Source: Balamuthia mandrillaris
Lineage: Eukaryota
Assembly (NCBI GenBank): GCA_031835245.2
Contig: JAVKOQ020000058.1
Span: 1 to 64,000 of the forward strand
Length of the DNA: 64,000 nucleotides
Reading direction: 5' to 3'
Shown piece after piece: positions 49,876 to 58,664 of this stretch (the first letter of the stretch is position 1; each line of letters begins with the position of its first letter). The position numbers and the translations under genes are program-made. Under the pieces are notes generated by a model. The model saw only the letters and a list, made by a program, of their open reading frames with translations. It was not told the origin of the DNA and did not search any database.

Positions 49876-50459
49876 TCAAGCCTTGCCAGCCATCTTCCTG
49901 CCCAAGTCCTTCATCCTGTCCATGAAAGACGCCAACGGCGCCGCCATGGTGTTCCAGGGCGGGGTGTTGGGTGCGCTGGGGTGAGGGTGCGTCGGGGCCA
50001 TGGGCTTCAGCGTCTCGATCAGGGAGCCCATGTCCTCCAGGTCCTGCGCTCCCATCCTCTGCTTGAGCACCTCAAAGACCTCCCCTTCCTCCTCCTCGAT
50101 GTGGTGGAGGGTCTCCTCCTTGAGCTGCTTGAAGGTGGCCATGAACTCACGGTCCCCCACCCGGTCGCTGGGCGTCTGGTCCAGCTTGTAGAGCGCGTCC
50201 TTCATTCTCTGGTGCTCCGTCAGGGAGCGGTCGGCCAGGTCGGGCTTGCCGGAGATGTTGCGGAGGGCCGGGTAGAGCACCTGCTCCTCCAACTCGGCGT
50301 GCTTGCTGAGGTTTTCCACCAGCAGCTGCAGGTGCTTGGAGATCTCGTTCTGGTCTTTGGCGTTCTCGATGCTGGAGAACAAGCGTTTGACTGGGCATGT
50401 TTGGTTGGGCGGAGTTCTTTCAGCCTAAAGAGCATGGAGAAGAAGAAGAGGAGAGAGAA

Positions 50460-50502
<43 letters not shown>

Positions 50503-50669
50503 ATCTACACAGAAACAAACCAACCTTCTTTGTGGTCATGAGTGAGGACGTCGACGGCGTTGGCGTAGCCGCGAGAAGAAGAGGCCAAAAAGGCCATGCG
50601 GTGGGGTGTGGGGGCCACCGCTGGCCTCACACAAAGCAAACTGCCTCTCTGAAGCGCTGTGCGATACAT
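49876..50669 (-). CDS. Hemerythrin-like (HHE) cation-binding protein with probable mitochondrial presequence
   Basis: DVLTHDHKE|V, HAELEEQVLYP, EHQRMK, HHIEEEE and APTHPHP. N-terminus MYRTALQRGSLLCVRP...SSRGYA. Confidence 0.88.
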
Positions 50670-51067
50670 TTCTTTTTCCTCTTTTTGTGTGTTTTATTAT
50701 TATTGCAATCTCCTTCCACAAACTCGGCTTTTTGTAGTTGGCGGAAGAAAACATGCGGAGAAGCCAAAGGCAAATGGCTCCATGGGGGGGGAAGGGGACC
50801 AGTTGTACTACTTTCGTTGTGCTTTCTCAGGAAATGAAGGCCGCGTGCCATCGACTTGCTGCTGATTTTCTTGCTGCCTTTGAATCATCAGCTCTTCACC
50901 TTTCCCTTTTTTTTTTGTCGAACAAAATGGTCGGCATAAATGCTCCAAGTTTCCGTCGACAGTAATGTGTCCGCAACAAATAAAATTCTGTCGACGACCC
51001 GCTACCTCGTAGCCGGTTCAATCGATCTATTACGTTGCAAACAGAAGGAAAGAAAAAAAAATAAAAA

Positions 51068-52689
51068 ATGCAACGAAGAACGACCACACGCCGACAAAGA
51101 CGTAGCAGCGATGCTGCGCAGGTGCTCATACGATACGAAGAAGAAGCAGAAGAGGAGGAGGAGGAAGTGGTGGTGGAGGAGGAGGAGGAGGAAGAGGGCG
51201 TGAGTGATGGTTCGGACTTTGAATGGGGACACGAAAACCGAAAACGCGCCACAACGACTGCGCCCAGACGAAGAAAAAGTTGGCCACAACAAAAGAGGCC
51301 AAAACGGAGTAGCAGCAACTCCAGGAAAACCAAAGTCAAGAAAGGAGCAGCAGAGAAGGGAGAAGAAGAAGAAGAAGAAGGAACGGCTGTGGATGAGACC
51401 CTTCTTCGGTGGGATGGTTTGGAGGGTGCAGCTGCAGCGGAGGCCCATCGGGGCGTGCATGCGGTGCTTGTGGGGCTGTATGGCAGGCCGGAGCCCCGGC
51501 AGGACCCAGAAGGAGGGAGCAGGAGCAGCGCCAATTGTTGTGGGCGCAAAGAAACGGTGTTGGAAGCGCTCATCAGCATCGTTCTCTCCCAAAACACTTC
51601 GGATCGCAACAGCAGAGCGGCTTATCGTGGCCTAAAGACCCGTTTCCCATCTCCCGCTGGCAACGAAGAAGTGAAAGAGGAAGCAAAAGGGAAGACCAGC
51701 GATGCGACCGCTAATGCCAACCAAGCAAAGAAGAAACGACTCCTCCCTGTGAAGAAGGAAAAGAAAGAGGATGGCGAAAGCGAGAACTACACAGAAACTA
51801 AAATAAAGGAAGAAGAAGAGGAGGAAGATGACAAACGGAAGGTGAAAGTGAAACAAGAAGCAAGCACAACGATCGACATGGAGGCCGTTCGCCTGAGCAA
51901 GGTGGAGGACATAGAGGACGCCATTCGTCCTGGAGGTTTGGCCAAGACAAAGGCCAGACGCATCAAAGCGTTGCTGCAGCAGATCCATGAAGAACGTGGA
52001 GGAAGTACCAGCTTGGAGTTCCTGAGGGACATGCCAACGGAGGCGTTGAAGGAGTACTTGCGGAAGTTTGATGGAGTTGGGCCAAAGACCATTTCTTGTC
52101 TATTGTTGTTCACGCTATGTCGAGACGACATGCCGGTGGTAAGTTATCCTTTCTCCTGCCGTCTATTATTCATCTGTTTTCATCGTTCCTCTTACTCCAT
52201 TATTCTTTATTTTCGTTCTTCTTCATTCCTTCTCCCACTCCTTCTCCTTTATATTACTGTTTCTATCTTCTTCGTTGTTATCAACAGGATACTCATGTGG
52301 CAAGGGTTTCTCGGCGATTGGGGTGGGTCAAACACAATTCCTCTCGAGAGGGCACCTATGAGCATCTAAACCGACACATGCCCGATGAGCTAAAATACGA
52401 CCTTCACAACCTTCTAATTGCTCATGGACGAAAGCTGTGCAGGTCGTCTAATCCTATTTGTGAGCAATGCCCTTTAAGGCAACAACATTGCTTGTATTAC
52501 AAGCACGCTATCGAAGGAAAGAACGACAACAGCTCAAGAAAAAAGTCACAAATGATACGACTGGATGAGAACTACTTCAGGTCTGCTTTGGCACAGATTG
52601 AAGAAAAGCTTGAAGACGAAGAACTGAAACGCAATAAGACCACGACCGTGAAGAAAGAGAGGATAAAACGAGAGAAGAAAGACGCATGA
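51068..52689 (+). CDS. HhH-GPD DNA glycosylase / endonuclease III-like with 4Fe-4S motif
   Basis: LISIVLSQNTSD, IRPGGLAKTKA, FDGVGPKTISC, PV|DTHVARVSRRLG and LIAHGRKLCRSSNPICEQCPLRQQHC. Confidence 0.93.
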
Positions 52690-53060
52690 TAGATAAATTT
52701 TAAGTACGTTTATCTTATCCCCTCTGTTTTTTTAGAACAAACAAAAACTTTCATTCTACACAACTGACTCACTATCGCGTTCATTCGTTAGCCCTTGTCT
52801 TTATCCTTAGCTTCAACAGTTGAAGCAAAAAACTGCGATAGAGTCGCATGCTCCTTCTTGCACCTTCTCACACGATCTTCTTTTTGTGTGGTGGTTTGAT
52901 CCCAAAATATCAGGAACAATCGTAAACTTTTGCATTTGTTATGAATTATCAGAGGATATTATCAATTTCCCATTTTTTTGATTGTTTCTTGGAAATATTT
53001 AAAATATATGAAATAAAAAAAAGCAAAAAAAAAAAATAATCGAAGGCAACACCACACAAG

Positions 53061-53163
53061 ATGAATGCACGCGAGCGGCTCAAAAAGAAAATAGCTGGCA
53101 AAGGCGGCGCTTTGAAGCAGTTTAGTTTTTTTTCTCTCTCTCTCTCTCTTTTCTGTTTGTTCT

Positions 53164-53204
<41 letters not shown>

Positions 53205-54739
53205 ATTAAACGAAGCGTAACGTTTGATGATGATGATTACAGAGCGCGAGCGCAAGACGGCAAGCAGCTTTGTGTCAAGTGCAAAAAACCGACCGCGTGC
53301 TTCTTGCCGCTCATCTCCACTGCCGCCTGCAAGAACTGCCAGAAGGAACACAAGGAGCTGCAAACCATCAGCCGCAGCGCCGCCAAGAAGGAGCTCCTCG
53401 CCACGGATGCCGTTCTCGACGAGCTGCCCTCTTCCGACAAGCCCAACCCTTACAACCCGAAAGGTGCTCCCATGAAGACCTACATGAGGTCCGTCGCTCT
53501 ATCTATCACCTCGTTTCTTTTTTATGTTTTCTTTTTGTGTTGTTGCTGTTGACTCTGTGGACCCACAAAACAGACAAGAGGTGGAAAAGGCCATGATGAG
53601 AGTGTATGGTGGACGAAAGGCTTGGAAAGCAGCTGTCCTCAAAGCCCAGTCCAAGTCTGCTTCCTCTTCTGCGTCTTCCTCCTCTTCTGCTTCCACTCCT
53701 GCCATGAAAGGTCCGACTCCGATTCTCTACTTCTCGTGCTTCTCTCTCTTCTCCCTTGGTCTCACATTCTCACTTCTCTCTCTCTCCTTTATTTTGTCTC
53801 TCATTCTCTTTCTCTATGTTTGTTTCATCCTAAACCTCTGGTTTTTAAATACAGAGGCAAATCCTCAACCAAAAGAAGTTTCGTTTTGCTCTTCCAAAGA
53901 CCGACCCTATGGCTGTTTCTCCAACTCTTCCGCCCATCCCATTACGCTCCACGACAAAGAATGGCCTACCGTGGTTTGCTCCTCTCTGCCTTCTGCCTTC
54001 TGCCTTCTTCTTTCTTGCTCTTAAAATGAAAAACAAACAAACAAACAAAAAAAAAAGGAGCATTACCTACAAGCCCAAAAGTTTGCAGGTTTACCAATGG
54101 AAGAGCAGATACGCGGTGCCATCAGCGCCAAAGAAGCAAAGAGCTTGGGATCCACCAAGGAAATCCCCAAACGTCGTGATTGGGATAGGGTCAAGGATAA
54201 CGTGCTCTATGAGGCCGTGCTGGCAAAATGCAGGCAACACAAGGACGTGTCTCGTCTTCTGCTGTCCACTGGCAATGCACCTATACACTATTGTTCTCCG
54301 GATGGTCCTTTTCATTTTGCTTCTTGCCCTTTCTCGTTTCTTTCTTCTCTTTCTCATCCTTGCCTCATCGTCAACAGATGCTTATTGGGGAAATGCAGGC
54401 GATGGGACTGGAAGAAATCAGTTGGGCAAAACGTTGGAGATAGTCAGGGGCAAGTTGAGACGAGAGGCAGAGATGAAGGCCATGAAAAAGAAGCACTCTT
54501 CTACAGGAAAGAAGAAGCGGTATCGAAGTGATGATGATGAAGAGGAGGAGGAAGAAGAAGAAAACGGCGTTGAAGGTAGCGAAGACGACGAAGCAGAATA
54601 CAGGGAACGGCAGCCACGAAAGAAAAAGCTTAAGCAGCAGCAAGACAACGGCAAAGCGAAAGAAAGCAAGCAGAAAGAGAAGGAGCAGGCAGAAAAGAAG
54701 CCAACGCTGAAGGAGTTTGACATTAGCGATGTACTGTAG
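53061..54739 (+). CDS. XPA-like Zn-finger/XPA_C domain fused to NADAR (YbiA-like) domain
   Basis: CVKC...CKNC...TISRSAAKKELL..D..L.......PNPYNPKGAPMKTYMR|QEVEK....VYGG. Then FSNSSAHPI....WPTV|EHYLQAQKF...RRDWDRVK...LLLSTG...D|DAYWG..GDGTGRNQLGKTLEIVR. K/E-rich tail with NLS-like KKKR. Confidence 0.85.
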
Positions 54740-55430
54740 CAAAAACAAAAAACAATCGCCTGCAGCCTCTCGCCTCTCTCTTTCCTCCAGTGAGAGTTAA
54801 CAGTAGGGCTGCCTTTCGACCGTCGCTTGGATGGCTTCCCAACTGGAGGAGACGGTGCGCCAACTGAGAGCGCAAGTGCACATGTTGGAAGAACCTGCGG
54901 AGTGCCCTCTCGTGGGCCCGTTCTAGCGCTAAGGAGCAAACAACAACAGAACAGTGTGAAAGGAAACTTGGTACGGTGGGATACGACGAAGAGTTTGTCT
55001 AGTTGGATGCTTCTTTCTTGCGCAGCGGCCGCTACGTTTTTCTTTCTGCAACCAAAGCTGCCACTGCTGTTTTCGATAAAAAAAAAAAAACAAAACATTA
55101 TTGATGGAAAAGGCGCATAAACACAAATAATTTTCGAAATTTAATTAACCTATTTCCCTACAAGGAAAGTCACAATCCAATGTATGATTTTCCATTGGGC
55201 AAGAGAAAAAAAGATTCCAAAAATAACGAAGCGGAGCGAAATTCCAAAAATAAAAAATAATAGGGAGGAAGCTGGGAAACTTGTTACACGAAATGTAGCA
55301 ACCAAACACCTCTCTCTCTCCCCTTGGTACACGACGAAAAACCTTTCGCTTCAGTGCCTTGCATATATATCTTTGTTTCCAGTTTGCAAGACTCTGTGCG
55401 CAGCTCACTCCCCCGGCACCAAAAACAAAC

Positions 55431-56893
55431 ATGGAGAAGAGGGAAGGAGAGAGACTGCCGGGCTACCTGAGCGACGACTTTGACTGGTGCTGCCTCCGCA
55501 TCGCCCAGCTCCAAAAGGAGACGGGCGGGGTGGCGCTGCCGCTGGTCCGCTGCCCAGAGAACGACCACTCCCATGTCACCAACTTTCGCGCCTTTTGCAA
55601 GTACGGGCTGTTGAGGAAAGTGAAAGAGATGGTCACCTGGTGGAACGAGCAAGGGAAAGATCAAACGCTGCTCTTCGGGGTTGGCAACCGTTTTGGAGAG
55701 ACCGCATTGATGCTGGCCGCCAAATACGCGCAGTTGGAAGTGGTCGACTACCTTTTGGCATTCAAAGGCAGTTGTGACCCAAACTTTAGCGCCATCACCC
55801 CACGGAGAACACGCGACCAGCTGCCCCTGACCAGCGCCTGCAAAAGCTACAGCCGTGCTTGCTTTGCCAGAAAGCAAACGCGTCACATAGAGACCGTTTT
55901 GAGCCTTTTGGAAGCAGGAGCGAGAAGCAGCGTCAACGACCCTTCGGACCTGACGCCGGCTCTTCGTGCCGCATCCTGGACGGGGTCACAGACCTTGCTG
56001 AGACTGTTGTTGTGTTATCAGGTCGCGGAGAACTCGCGGAAGAAACCTACGTTGGCGGAGGCGATGGACTGGATCGAGCAGTTAAAGGATTGTCAGGCGG
56101 TTGCTGTGCCGAAAAGTACCATGGGGAAAGAAATTTTTCGTTTGAAAGGACGAGCCCATCACGCAAGGCACCTCCTTTTAACACGAAGAAGGAGAGAAGG
56201 AAATGAAATGGAAGCAGAAGAAAACGAAGAGGAAGCTGAAGAGTTTGACGCAAACGAGGAACAAGACGAAGTGCAGAACGGCCGCTACAGAATATCACCG
56301 TTAGAGTTTGCATGCAGAGAAGGATATTGGAACGTTGTGACTGTCATGTTAGCGAAAGAGTCCATCCGAGCACGTATGCAACAGGACCAAGTCAAATGGA
56401 TCCAAAGACGTCGCCCGCATATGACCCCTTTACATTTCGCGTGTTTGTACGATATCCTCTCTCCCTCTCTCTTCTCGTTCTCTCTTGTTTTACCACTTTA
56501 TGCTTGCTTATGCTTGTTTCACCGTAGAGTTATTCTTGTTGTCGTTGTACTTCTTGTTGTTCTAGTTCTTCTTTATTCGGCGCCATGAACTGACGATTGT
56601 TGCGAAACAGAAATGACCACCTAGTAAACCAAGGCACACTTATAGAGCAGTTAGTCGAAGCAGGAGCCAGTCTTTGGATACCCAACAAAAAGGGACAGCT
56701 GCCGTTCGACCTTGCCAGCAAACCAACCACCAGGCGCATCTACCACGTGGCCATCACTTTGTGGGCTGGTTGGAGGCGGAGCTGGGAGGACCCAGAGACA
56801 CACCCCGATTGCCCTTTGGGCATGCTGCCAAGAGAGATGGTAGCCCTCATCCTCGGTGCAGCACTGCGAATGGAGCACCACCACAAGTTTTGA
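55431..56893 (+). CDS. Ankyrin repeat protein with C-terminal F-box-like motif
   Basis: GETALMLAAKYAQLEVVDYLL, SPLEFACREGY, TPLHFAC and NKKGQLPFDLA. Ends LGMLPREMVALILGAAL. Confidence 0.82.
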
Positions 56894-57035
56894 GAGTCCT
56901 ACTATCCTTTGTACACACACACACACACACACCTCTAGCTATTTGCTTTAAAAGAAAAGAAAGTAAAGTTGTTTTTTTTTTTTCAGTTTTCTTGAAAACA
57001 CATAGGGAAACAAAAACTGGCTGCAACAACAGAAG

Positions 57036-58664
57036 ATGAAAGCAGCAGCAGCAGCACCAAGAGTGGGCATCATAGGCACCGGTTGGGGCCTCCAGGTAGG
57101 CCTTTATTCTATTCACCACCCCCAACTGTTGTGTTTTATTTTTTTAAAAAAAAAACCACCACTTTTACTGTGCTTTGGTGACCGACCAAACAACAACACA
57201 AACCACCATCACCATCACCACCAAGGTTCAAGTACCAGCCTTTCGAGCTGCTGGATGGCAAGTGACCGCCTTGTGCGGTCGTGGCAAGGAGAAAACGGCA
57301 GAGCTGGCCCAGAAGAACAACATCCCTTTCTACACTTGCGACCCTGAGGAACTCATTCGCCATGAAAACGTTGTTTAAAAAAAAAACCACACCCCCACCT
57401 GCTGCTTTGGTTGCTTTCTTTCCCTGACGCAAAGTGTTGATTTGTGCAGGTCGACTTGGTGAGTGTGGTGTACCCTCCCAACGCTCACGCGGAGCTGTCC
57501 ATGGCCGCTCTCAAAGCTGGCAAGCATGTGCTTTGCGACAAACCCACCGCACTAAACGCCAAAGAAGCTGAGCTCATGTTTGAGACCGCGAAGGTTTGTG
57601 TTTCTTCCGGCTCAACATAATGCCACCTGCCTTTCTTGCTTCTTGCTTCTTGCTTCGTTCTTCGTTCTTCGTTCTCCTTTCTCCTTCCTTCTTCTCCTTC
57701 AGCTTCTTCATTTTCGTCTCGTCTCCTTCGTTCTTCGTTCTTCGTTCTTCTTGTCATTGCTCTTGTCCTTGCTCTTCTCCGTCATCTTCTTTTTATACTT
57801 CGATTCTTTCTTTCTGATCACACCACATTACAGGCCCATCCAAGCCAACTCTCCCTCATCGACCACGAGCTCCGCTTCCTCCCCAGCCTCCGTCGCGCTC
57901 GACAGGTCATCCAAAGCAAGCAGCTAGGCGCCGTCAAACACGTCCACTGCGAGTTCTTCAGCTTCCTGAACGTCAACCCGGCGTGGCACTGGTGGTGGGA
58001 CCGAGAGTTGGGAGGAGGCTTGATGGGTGCCATTGCCTCTCATATCATCGACAATGTCTCTTGGGTGCTCGGTCATAGAGCCAAAGCCGTCAACGCTCAC
58101 CTTCGTACTCTTGTTAAGCACCGTGGTGACTCTTCCTCTGCCGAACAACTGGACCACGAAGTAACGGCAGATGACTCTGGAGCTCTCCATTTGAGGTTCG
58201 AGGATGACCTCCGTTGTGACATCTCGTTGGAAATGTATGCCACTGGAGCAGCTCCCAAGAGGAAGAAGGAATGTAGATTCATCTGCGAAGGAGGAGTGCT
58301 GTACTTTGACATCGACTCTGGCGTGTTGGAAGGCTACTTGAATGCTATGCCTGGCTTCAAGCCCAGCGCTTCTTTAGGAGAAGGACTTTCTCACAGCGAT
58401 CCTTTCCTGCGAGTGGAACTGAACGAAGAGGCGGATGAAGGGGAAGAAGCAAAGAAGAAGGTGGAGATACCAGAGGCTGTGTCACCGAATCCGTTCAGCT
58501 ATGGAACGTGGAGGATGGCGCTTGCACTGAGGAAAGCTCTCGAGGAGGCCTCCTCGCTGGAGGACGCAGCCACCTTTGCGGATGGGCTGTACGTGCAGAG
58601 GGTGTTGGATGCTGCTCGTCGCAGCAGCGACCAGGGAAGCGTTTGGGTGAACATCGACCACTAA
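57036..58664 (+). CDS. Gfo/Idh/MocA family NAD(P)-dependent oxidoreductase
   Basis: VGIIGTGWG, PPNAHAE...ALKAGKHVLCDKP, DHELRFLP, GGGLMGAIASHIID and ATFADGL. Confidence 0.93.

What the first reader, a model, noticed from the sequence alone, without database searches (positions are those of the whole stretch)
53061..54739. XPA-like DNA-damage-binding domain fused to a NADAR (YbiA) hydrolase: candidate nuclear system for sensing or removing DNA ADP-ribosylation
Seen: one spliced gene carries a C4 zinc finger, an XPA_C-like segment (ISRSAAKKELL..D..L...KPNPYNPKGAPMKTYMR.EVEK...VYGG), a complete NADAR domain and a basic NLS-like tail. Established: XPA binds damaged or junction DNA in nucleotide excision repair. 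NADAR proteins are N-glycosidases; YbiA acts on riboflavin intermediates and the DarT1-partner NADARs remove ADP-ribose from guanine in DNA. Inference: this fusion targets a NADAR module to DNA, possibly to counter DNA-ADP-ribosylating toxins from ingested bacteria or viruses. I do not recognise this architecture from characterised proteins.
Basis: partly seen in the sequence, partly recalled or inferred. Interest (0 to 1): 0.85.

Follow-up and report, generated by a model that had tools for sequence, protein, structure and literature searches.

The report
Amoeba XPA-NADAR fusion lacking catalytic glutamate
This is a real, spliced amoeba gene, shared by Balamuthia, Acanthamoeba and Luapelamoeba, that joins an XPA-type zinc DNA-repair fold to a NADAR ADP-ribose-removing fold; the Balamuthia copy has tyrosine in place of the glutamate that NADAR enzymes need, so it likely binds a modified base on DNA rather than erasing it.

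Summary
Six exons (53061-54739) encode 389 aa, identical to a Balamuthia mandrillaris NCBI protein. One spliced contig joins exons 2-6, so both domains lie on one transcript.

Residues 26-126 match the whole XPA/Rad14 zinc-plus-XPA_C core (profile E 2e-12; Z 11.4). Residues 158-297 are a YbiA-type NADAR (Pfam E 1e-31). The same fusion, with shared end motifs, occurs in Acanthamoeba castellanii, Luapelamoeba hula and unnamed records (38-44% identity for the named two), and was not found elsewhere.

The interpretation needs correcting. The last-strand catalytic Glu is Tyr265 here and Tyr in two other lineages; it is Glu in 197 of 203 single-domain NADAR hits, and substitutions inactivated characterised NADARs. 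The pyrophosphate-binding Arg is lost in all four lineages. XPA's strand-wedge aromatic (W175/F262) is Gly. Only Luapelamoeba keeps the Glu.

Best reading: a likely nuclear DNA-tethered NADAR that mainly binds, not erases, its target. An active eraser or an enzyme with changed substrate remain rivals. The architecture was not found in the papers searched. No activity was tested.

The parts
53061..53119 (+). Exon 1 (aa 1-19): start codon and conserved basic N-terminal motif (M-x-ARERLKKK)
   Evidence: equals NCBI model P0001; motif shared with Acanthamoeba and Luapelamoeba proteins; junction not seen in reads (repeat-masked)
53243..53488 (+). Exon 2 (aa 20-101): C4 zinc finger and most of the XPA_C-like subdomain
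53271..53339 (+). C4 zinc-finger motif C30-x2-C33 ... C49-x2-C52
   Evidence: aligns with the XPA zinc ligands; both CxxC pairs kept in P0246 and P0155; zinc binding inferred
53259..53646 (+). XPA/Rad14-type core, aa 26-126 (spans intron 2)
   Evidence: profile vs PDB E 2e-12; model pLDDT 88; Foldseek E 2e-6 to Rad14; VIA Z 11.4, rmsd 3.0, 100 aligned
53463..53465 (+). Gly94, at the position of the strand-wedge aromatic Rad14 F262 / XPA W175
   Evidence: alignments; role of the wedge from PMC7038936 passage
53574..53710 (+). Exon 3 (aa 102-147): last XPA-like helices and Ser-rich linker
53855..53973 (+). Exon 4 (aa 148-187): start of the NADAR domain
54058..54304 (+). Exon 5 (aa 188-269): NADAR core with E188, K195, K215, S219, W229, K233, Y265
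53884..54460 (+). YbiA-type NADAR domain, aa 158-297 (spans introns 4 and 5)
   Evidence: Pfam PF08719 E 1.4e-31; E. coli YbiA 2B3W E 4e-29; Foldseek rmsd 1.6 over 145 columns
54289..54291 (+). Tyr265 (TAT) at the last-strand catalytic Glu position
54378..54739 (+). Exon 6 (aa 270-389): end of NADAR (D270, W273), charged tail with basic clusters, stop codon
   Evidence: tail predicted disordered (pLDDT about 45-50)
54713..54736 (+). Conserved C-terminal motif E-[FW]-D-I-[SC]-D-[VI]-L (T-W-D-I-T-T-R-M in Luapelamoeba); partner unknown

Best explanation
This gene, conserved in centramoebid amoebae, fuses an XPA-type zinc core to a YbiA-type NADAR domain whose catalytic glutamate is replaced by tyrosine, and it likely works in the nucleus as a DNA-tethered binder (reader or adaptor) of a modified base rather than as a standard guanine-ADP-ribose eraser. 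Shown: one spliced transcript, both folds, conservation across four lineages, the Glu-to-Tyr and Arg-to-Ser/Glu changes, and loss of the XPA wedge. Inferred steps: (1) basic clusters take it to the nucleus; (2) the wedge-less XPA core holds it on DNA through backbone contacts without prying strands apart; (3) the NADAR pocket, which keeps E188, K195, W229, D270 and W273, docks an N-ribosylated or ADP-ribosylated base but hydrolyses it slowly or not at all; (4) the conserved end motifs recruit partner proteins. The Glu-bearing Luapelamoeba ortholog would be the member most likely to be catalytically active.
For: Spliced contig across exons 2-6. XPA core by profile and fold. Same architecture with matching termini in the A. 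castellanii cluster (44% over 323 aa), L. hula (38% over 317 aa) and unnamed JGI records. Purifying selection: 15 of 17 coding differences taken are synonymous. Position 265 is Glu in 197 of 203 single-domain NADAR hits but Tyr in 3 of 4 fusion lineages. Mutating that residue inactivated SCO5665 and impaired E. coli C7 NADAR. Position 219 is Arg in 162 and Lys in 7 of 203 hits but S, E, E, E in the fusions. Position 233 is Lys or Arg in 203 of 203 hits but Gln in two fusions. Both positions contact the pyrophosphate in 8BAU. The rest of the pocket is kept in all four lineages, as expected for a binder. Precedent for a eukaryotic nuclear NADAR protein with a non-toxin role: nematode SNA-3 (PMC9303266 passages).
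Against: L. hula keeps the Glu, so the family is not uniformly inactive. Losing R79 would weaken ADP-ribose binding as well as catalysis, so the bound ligand may not be ADP-ribose. NADARs tolerate Asp or His at this site, and Tyr has not been assayed in any paper I read. The XPA globular core alone binds DNA poorly without residues 220-239 (PMC7038936); the matching stretch here is a Ser-rich linker with 2 K/R, so DNA binding itself is not assured. NCBI lists isoforms without the zinc finger (P0004, P0005) or with intron 5 retained (P0002, P0006, P0158).
Confidence: 0.45

Rival explanations
1. It is an active DNA-targeted eraser of guanine (or cytidine) ADP-ribosylation. The XPA core would supply the DNA affinity that bare YbiA domains lack, protecting the amoeba from DNA-modifying toxins.
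For: E188, K195, W229, D270, W273 are kept. All wild-type NADARs tested in the papers read hydrolysed guanine-ADP-ribose. A DNA-binding extension was suggested to explain the higher activity of DarT1-linked NADAR. L. hula keeps the Glu. Pierisin/MTX homologues are reported in Amoebozoa, and an A. castellanii protein is listed among ART sequences (supplement Table S3).
Against: Tyr265 replaces the acid whose E-to-Q or E-to-D change abolished activity in SCO5665. R79 is lost in all four lineages. No compensating acid is common to the three Tyr lineages (position 219 is Glu in two, Ser in Balamuthia).
Confidence: 0.22
2. It is an N-glycosidase with a changed substrate: it cleaves a damaged, ring-opened or adducted purine from DNA and acts as an unorthodox repair glycosylase.
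For: [quoted passage not shown] These are ring-opened GTP derivatives that resemble formamidopyrimidine lesions (own knowledge). The changed positions include pyrophosphate contacts, which a DNA lesion would not need. E. coli ybiA lies in a LexA-controlled operon with dinG. Tyr is shared by three lineages at under 50% identity.
Against: No NADAR glycosylase activity on DNA lesions appears in the papers read. The XPA wedge that could open a duplex is absent. The lost Glu contacts the ribose next to the cleaved bond, so any N-glycosidase activity may need it.
Confidence: 0.12
3. It is simply these amoebae's XPA: a nucleotide-excision-repair scaffold that carries an incidental NADAR domain.
For: The zinc finger and XPA_C subdomain occur together with XPA spacing. 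The best structural matches are Rad14 and XPA. The zinc motif is XPA's RPA70AB contact.
Against: The wedge aromatic is Gly in Balamuthia and Acanthamoeba, and the hairpin is 8 residues shorter in L. hula. No GGF string in the four proteins checked (the ERCC1-binding GGGF motif is recalled). No counterpart of XPA 208-239. XPA-like folds also occur outside NER, in giant-virus proteins and SLC30A9. Whether a canonical XPA exists elsewhere in the genome could not be tested (no genome held).
Confidence: 0.12
4. It acts on RNA or ribonucleoprotein in the nucleus or nucleolus, like nematode SNA-3, and the XPA-like module is a generic nucleic-acid or protein binder.
For: SNA-3 is a nuclear multi-NADAR trans-splicing factor. 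NADARs act on guanine-ADP-ribosylated RNA. Among the hits, multi-NADAR proteins often lack the Glu (17 of 60 domains keep it).
Against: No RNA-binding domain was detected. The solved relatives of the N-terminal core are DNA-repair proteins.
Confidence: 0.09

Closest known systems
E. coli YbiA (PDB 2B3W; YbiA subfamily of NADAR, PF08719)
   Same: Same fold (rmsd 1.6, 41% identity over 145 columns). E48, K55, W89, D130 and W133 equivalents are kept (numbers counted from the alignment). No DarT1-type N-terminal extension.
   Different: E125 is Tyr, R79 is Ser; fused to an XPA core and charged tail; intron-containing eukaryotic gene.
Phytophthora nicotianae NADAR (PDB 8BAU) and DarT1-linked NADAR (DarG1)
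   Same: E43, K50, K75, W89, D130, W133 equivalents are present and R93 is Lys.
   Different: The catalytic E125/D171 position is Tyr and R79 is lost; more distant (22% identity); no transferase gene among the neighbours checked.
XPA / Rad14 DNA-binding core (PDB 1XPA, 1D4U, 5A39, 5LCL)
   Same: C4 zinc finger plus XPA_C subdomain over about 100 residues, Z 8.7-11.4 for 1XPA, 5A39 and 5LCL, 24-26% identity.
   Different: No W175/F262 wedge, no basic 208-239 extension, no GGF string, and a NADAR domain where XPA has its C-terminal region.
XPA-like proteins of giant viruses (Clandestinovirus, Catovirus, Pandoravirus, Fadolivirus, Klosneuvirus)
   Same: Same predicted fold, Foldseek E 3e-6 to 3e-4; nearest Atlas cluster (score 0.84, lead only).
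   Different: 14-24% identity. No NADAR fusion seen; two low-sensitivity viral contig scans found no relative. Direction of any exchange is unknown.
C. elegans SNA-3
   Same: Eukaryotic nuclear NADAR protein with one degenerate domain.
   Different: Three NADAR domains, nematode-specific, works in trans-splicing, no XPA core.

Membership tests
NADAR superfamily (PF08719) | Profile score above the curated cut-off over the whole domain | tested here: met
   110.4 bits vs cut-off 35.1; profile 2-163 of 163
NADAR superfamily (PF08719) | YbiA fold | tested here: met
   model pLDDT 95-98 over the domain; Foldseek 2B3W E 8e-12, rmsd 1.6
NADAR superfamily (PF08719) | Conserved Glu (E43/E88) and Lys (K50/K95) | tested here: met
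   E188 and K195 in all four fusion lineages
YbiA subfamily | Catalytic glutamate in the last strand (E125) | tested here: not met
   Tyr265; also Tyr in P0246 and P0254; Glu only in L. hula P0155. Defining role stated in PMC11125620.
DarT1-associated (BC4488/DarG1) NADAR | Catalytic Asp, basic N-terminal fold extension, adjacent darT gene | tested here: not met
   Tyr at the site. The neighbours scanned are a hemerythrin, an HhH-GPD glycosylase, an ankyrin protein and an oxidoreductase.
Active guanine-ADP-ribose hydrolases | Hydrolysis of guanine-ADP-ribose in vitro | not testable with these tools
   needs an assay; residues predict loss in Balamuthia
XPA/Rad14 domain family (PF05181 plus zinc finger) | C4 zinc finger followed by XPA_C with the XPA fold | tested here: met
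XPA/Rad14 domain family (PF05181 plus zinc finger) | Pfam XPA_C gathering score | tested here: inconclusive
   20.3 bits in P0001 (cut-off 25); 25.4 in P0246; 25.0 in P0256; no hit in P0155
XPA orthologs (NER scaffold) | Beta-hairpin wedge H171/W175 (Rad14 H258/F262) | tested here: not met
   Y90/G94 in Balamuthia, Met/Gly in Acanthamoeba, hairpin shortened in L. hula
XPA orthologs (NER scaffold) | ERCC1-binding Gly-Gly-Gly-Phe motif (recalled) and basic C-terminal helix 208-239 | tested here: not met
   no GGF in P0001, P0246, P0155, P0256; linker 127-153 has 2 K/R; alignment ends at XPA 207
XPA orthologs (NER scaffold) | Sole or reciprocal-best XPA gene of the genome | not testable with these tools
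   no genome held

The most novel reading that the evidence does not exclude
Centramoebid amoebae have turned a bacterial-type NADAR into a dedicated chromatin-scanning module. An XPA-derived zinc core carries the pocket along DNA, where it reads ADP-ribosylated guanine, or excises ring-opened guanine lesions with a rebuilt Tyr active site. It would be the first eukaryotic reader or repair factor for base ADP-ribosylation built on NADAR, with natural active (Glu) and reader (Tyr) versions in sister amoebae.
Probability: 0.2. Interest if true: 0.85.

Novelty: new variant of a known kind. Interest (0 to 1): 0.6.

Why it matters
The physiological targets of eukaryotic and stand-alone NADARs are stated to be unknown (PMC11125620; PMC11543638). 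A NADAR fused to a DNA-repair fold and kept across amoeba families gives a direct, testable pointer to DNA as a target in a eukaryote. The Glu/Tyr pair (Luapelamoeba versus Balamuthia and Acanthamoeba) is a ready-made experiment on eraser versus reader function. It also shows the XPA core reused outside canonical excision repair. NADARs are absent from mammals, so an essential role would be of interest in two opportunistic pathogens, but essentiality is unknown.

Tried and rejected
1. First intron guess was off by 1-2 bases at four junctions; corrected.
2. Separate genes or an annotation artefact: rejected by the spliced contig and by the L. hula transcriptome protein with the same order.
3. 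Chance XPA resemblance: rejected.
4. A widespread fusion: not seen. Among the best 150 of 9610 representative hits, only P0008, P0013 and P0017 besides Balamuthia matched the N-terminal part. (92 hits) added P0159; (10 hits) added P0246-P0248 and one XPA_C-only protein. Lower-ranked or divergent fusions may be missed.
5. DNA of relatives: two metagenome scans and two viral scans found nothing; exact-peptide patterns and introns make these weak, so synteny was not tested.
6. Origin of the NADAR domain: a FastTree of 258 domains (fragments under 115 aa and 18 duplicate fusion records left out) grouped the five fusion rows, with support 0.19 (0.80 with stand-alone P0143). No donor can be named.
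7. No listed holder of the stretch is on record as RNA; evidence comes from the lays only.
8. Atlas: whole Acanthamoeba protein gave no usable hit; the N-terminal hits scored under 0.9.
9. Rfam: no match in 50000-58000.
10. Three look-ups of earlier findings returned nothing.
11. Literature: 'XPA'+'NADAR' gave 3 unrelated papers; 'NADAR'+'Acanthamoeba' gave 31, 20 listed, none on this gene by title or abstract start; 'ACA1_156210' gave 0. Supplements of three NADAR papers do not list this protein. De Souza and Aravind 2012 and Frelin 2015 were not read and the former may mention the architecture; bioRxiv supplements were closed.
12. No complex prediction was sent, since no binding partner is claimed.

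Full report
1. Observation. The + strand carries a six-exon gene from the ATG at 53061 to the TAG ending at 54739, with five GT-AG introns (53120-53242, 53489-53573, 53711-53854, 53974-54057, 54305-54377). It translates to 389 aa without an internal stop. A search with exon 2 returned one protein, P0001, 389 aa, named by NCBI a NADAR domain-containing protein of Balamuthia mandrillaris. It is identical to my model. NCBI holds a second, 97% identical copy on another contig, and isoforms that lack the zinc finger or retain intron 5.

2. One transcript. Record 1 of run X1 (1041 nt) lies on exons 2 to 6 in order with contiguous coordinates. GT..AG joints are called for introns 2, 3 and 5. Raw RNA-seq run X4 shows the intron 3 joint, which links the XPA side to the NADAR side, in 2 reads and the intron 5 joint in 1 read. 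Caveats: X1 is RNA only by the tool's guess, read depth is very low, introns 1 and 4 border masked repeats, and a few X3 reads lie inside introns 4 and 5. Introns 1 and 3 could be read through in frame. Of 17 coding differences I took, 15 are synonymous. I left out differences in the low-complexity Ser linker and in introns; the contig has 24 differences in all, of which 14 were among the 17.

3. N-terminal module. Pfam XPA_C scores below its cut-off in Balamuthia (20.3 of 25 bits), but phmmer finds Rad14 at E 8e-6 and XPA at 1e-4. A four-sequence profile finds XPA at E 2e-12 across the zinc finger and XPA_C subdomain. The predicted domain (pLDDT 88) matches Rad14 at Z 11.4, rmsd 3.0 over 100 residues, with unrelated folds at Z 3.7 or less. 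The fold is therefore real. However, Rad14 H258/F262 and XPA H171/W175, which wedge between DNA strands (PMC7038936, passage), align with Y90/G94. The basic C-terminal extension that XPA needs for DNA binding has no counterpart. Similar folds occur in giant-virus proteins.

4. NADAR domain. Residues 158-297 match PF08719 at E 1.4e-31 and E. coli YbiA at rmsd 1.6. The full-length model has two confident domains and pTM 0.54, consistent with a flexible link, and a low-confidence tail. I mapped the residues named for the P. nicotianae ADP-ribose complex (PMC11543638 section 12) through the alignments. Kept: E43 (E188), K50 (K195), K75 (K215), W89 (W229), D130 (D270), W133 (W273); R93 is K233. Changed: E125 is Tyr265 and R79 is Ser219. 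Among 204 single-domain NADAR rows from my searches, 203 have a residue at 265 and 197 are Glu. One of the six exceptions is a fragment of the fused gene's own JGI cluster. These rows are top hits to this query, not a random family sample. E167Q and E167D abolished activity in SCO5665 (PMC12945103 sections 9 and 10), and D171A/N removed efficient activity in E. coli C7 NADAR. The last-strand Glu is also the stated mark of the YbiA subfamily (PMC11125620, first three of six parts read).

5. Relatives. The same order of N-terminal motif, zinc finger, XPA_C, NADAR, charged tail and C-terminal motif occurs in a cluster that includes Acanthamoeba castellanii ACA1_156210 (P0246/P0250) and in Luapelamoeba hula (P0155). 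A set of unnamed, N-terminally incomplete JGI records (P0017, P0159, P0247, P0254, P0256) shows the second CxxC, XPA_C, NADAR, tail and C-terminal motif. An unnamed intron-read-through prediction (P0248) has insertions at the positions of Balamuthia introns 2, 4 and 5, which suggests shared introns and vertical descent. Balamuthia is in Centramoebida; that Acanthamoeba and Luapelamoeba are too is recalled (the Luapelamoeba look-up failed). Position 265 is Tyr in Balamuthia, Acanthamoeba and the JGI lineage and Glu in L. hula. Position 219 is S, E, E, E and position 233 is K, Q, Q, K. No fusion from outside this group appeared, within the limits given under Tried and rejected. A domain tree did not resolve the donor.

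6. Mechanism. I commit at 0.45 to a nuclear, DNA-tethered NADAR pocket that binds a modified base and recruits partners, with little or no standard hydrolase activity in the Tyr lineages. Shown: transcript, folds, conservation, residue changes. Inferred: nuclear location, DNA binding, ligand identity, loss of catalysis, partner recruitment. Rivals: active eraser as first proposed (0.22, higher for the L. hula ortholog), N-glycosidase for damaged bases (0.12), the lineage's XPA with a passenger domain (0.12), and an RNA-related role like SNA-3 (0.09; PMC9303266, passages).

7. Comparison and novelty. The protein belongs to the NADAR superfamily and has an XPA-family domain. It fails the defining residue of the YbiA subfamily and the tested features of an XPA ortholog. 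Databases already hold the sequences under a generic NADAR name. I found no paper describing the fusion in the searches or in three supplements. The A. castellanii accession in one supplement is an ADP-ribosyltransferase entry, not this protein. De Souza and Aravind 2012, the main survey of NADAR architectures, was not read. Other papers seen only as passages: PMC11833690, PMC3969565, PMC8383183, PMC9266487, PMC12697723.

8. Verdict. Real feature; new variant of a known kind; interest 0.6. The architecture is new and conserved, and the natural Glu/Tyr pair makes the open question of what eukaryotic NADARs do directly testable.

Noticed in passing
window 51068-52690 (+): The gene just upstream encodes an HhH-GPD (endonuclease III-like) DNA glycosylase (Pfam E 4.5e-5 on the first exon), with one intron near 52139-52287 seen spliced on separate contigs. 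It ends about 370 bases before this gene. A DNA-repair neighbour may be chance; synteny was not testable.
   Followed up: partly
window 53120, 53489, 53711, 53974, 54305: All five splice donors have a pyrimidine at +3 (GTTTAG, GTCCGT, GTCCGA, GTTTGC, GTCCTT), whereas the upstream gene's donor is GTAAGT. Three of these donors are supported by called joints.
   Followed up: no
window 53061-53090 and 54713-54736: Short motifs at both ends (ARERLKKK; [FW]DI) are conserved across otherwise divergent, low-confidence termini of the orthologs; partners unknown.
   Followed up: partly
proteins P0007, P0014-P0016, P0018-P0021, P0031: Tandem-NADAR proteins, some named from fungi or protists, include fusions to cyclic-nucleotide-gated ion channels with EF hands, to protein kinases and to a 5'-nucleotidase domain. 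Only 17 of 60 domains in 28 multi-NADAR proteins keep the catalytic Glu (18 Phe, 8 Tyr), suggesting that NADAR pseudo-enzymes are common in such proteins.
   Followed up: partly
protein P0143 (unnamed Logan record): A 187-aa stand-alone NADAR with Tyr at the catalytic position and basic termini falls next to the fusion group in the tree (support 0.80).
   Followed up: partly
window 49876-50424 (-), 55431-56450 (+), 57621-58664 (+): Neighbouring genes: hemerythrin HHE-domain protein, ankyrin-repeat protein, GFO/IDH/MocA oxidoreductase.
   Followed up: no
BFVD hits for window 53259-53646: Ten giant-virus proteins, several from viruses of protists, share the XPA zinc-core fold and most are unannotated.
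   Followed up: no
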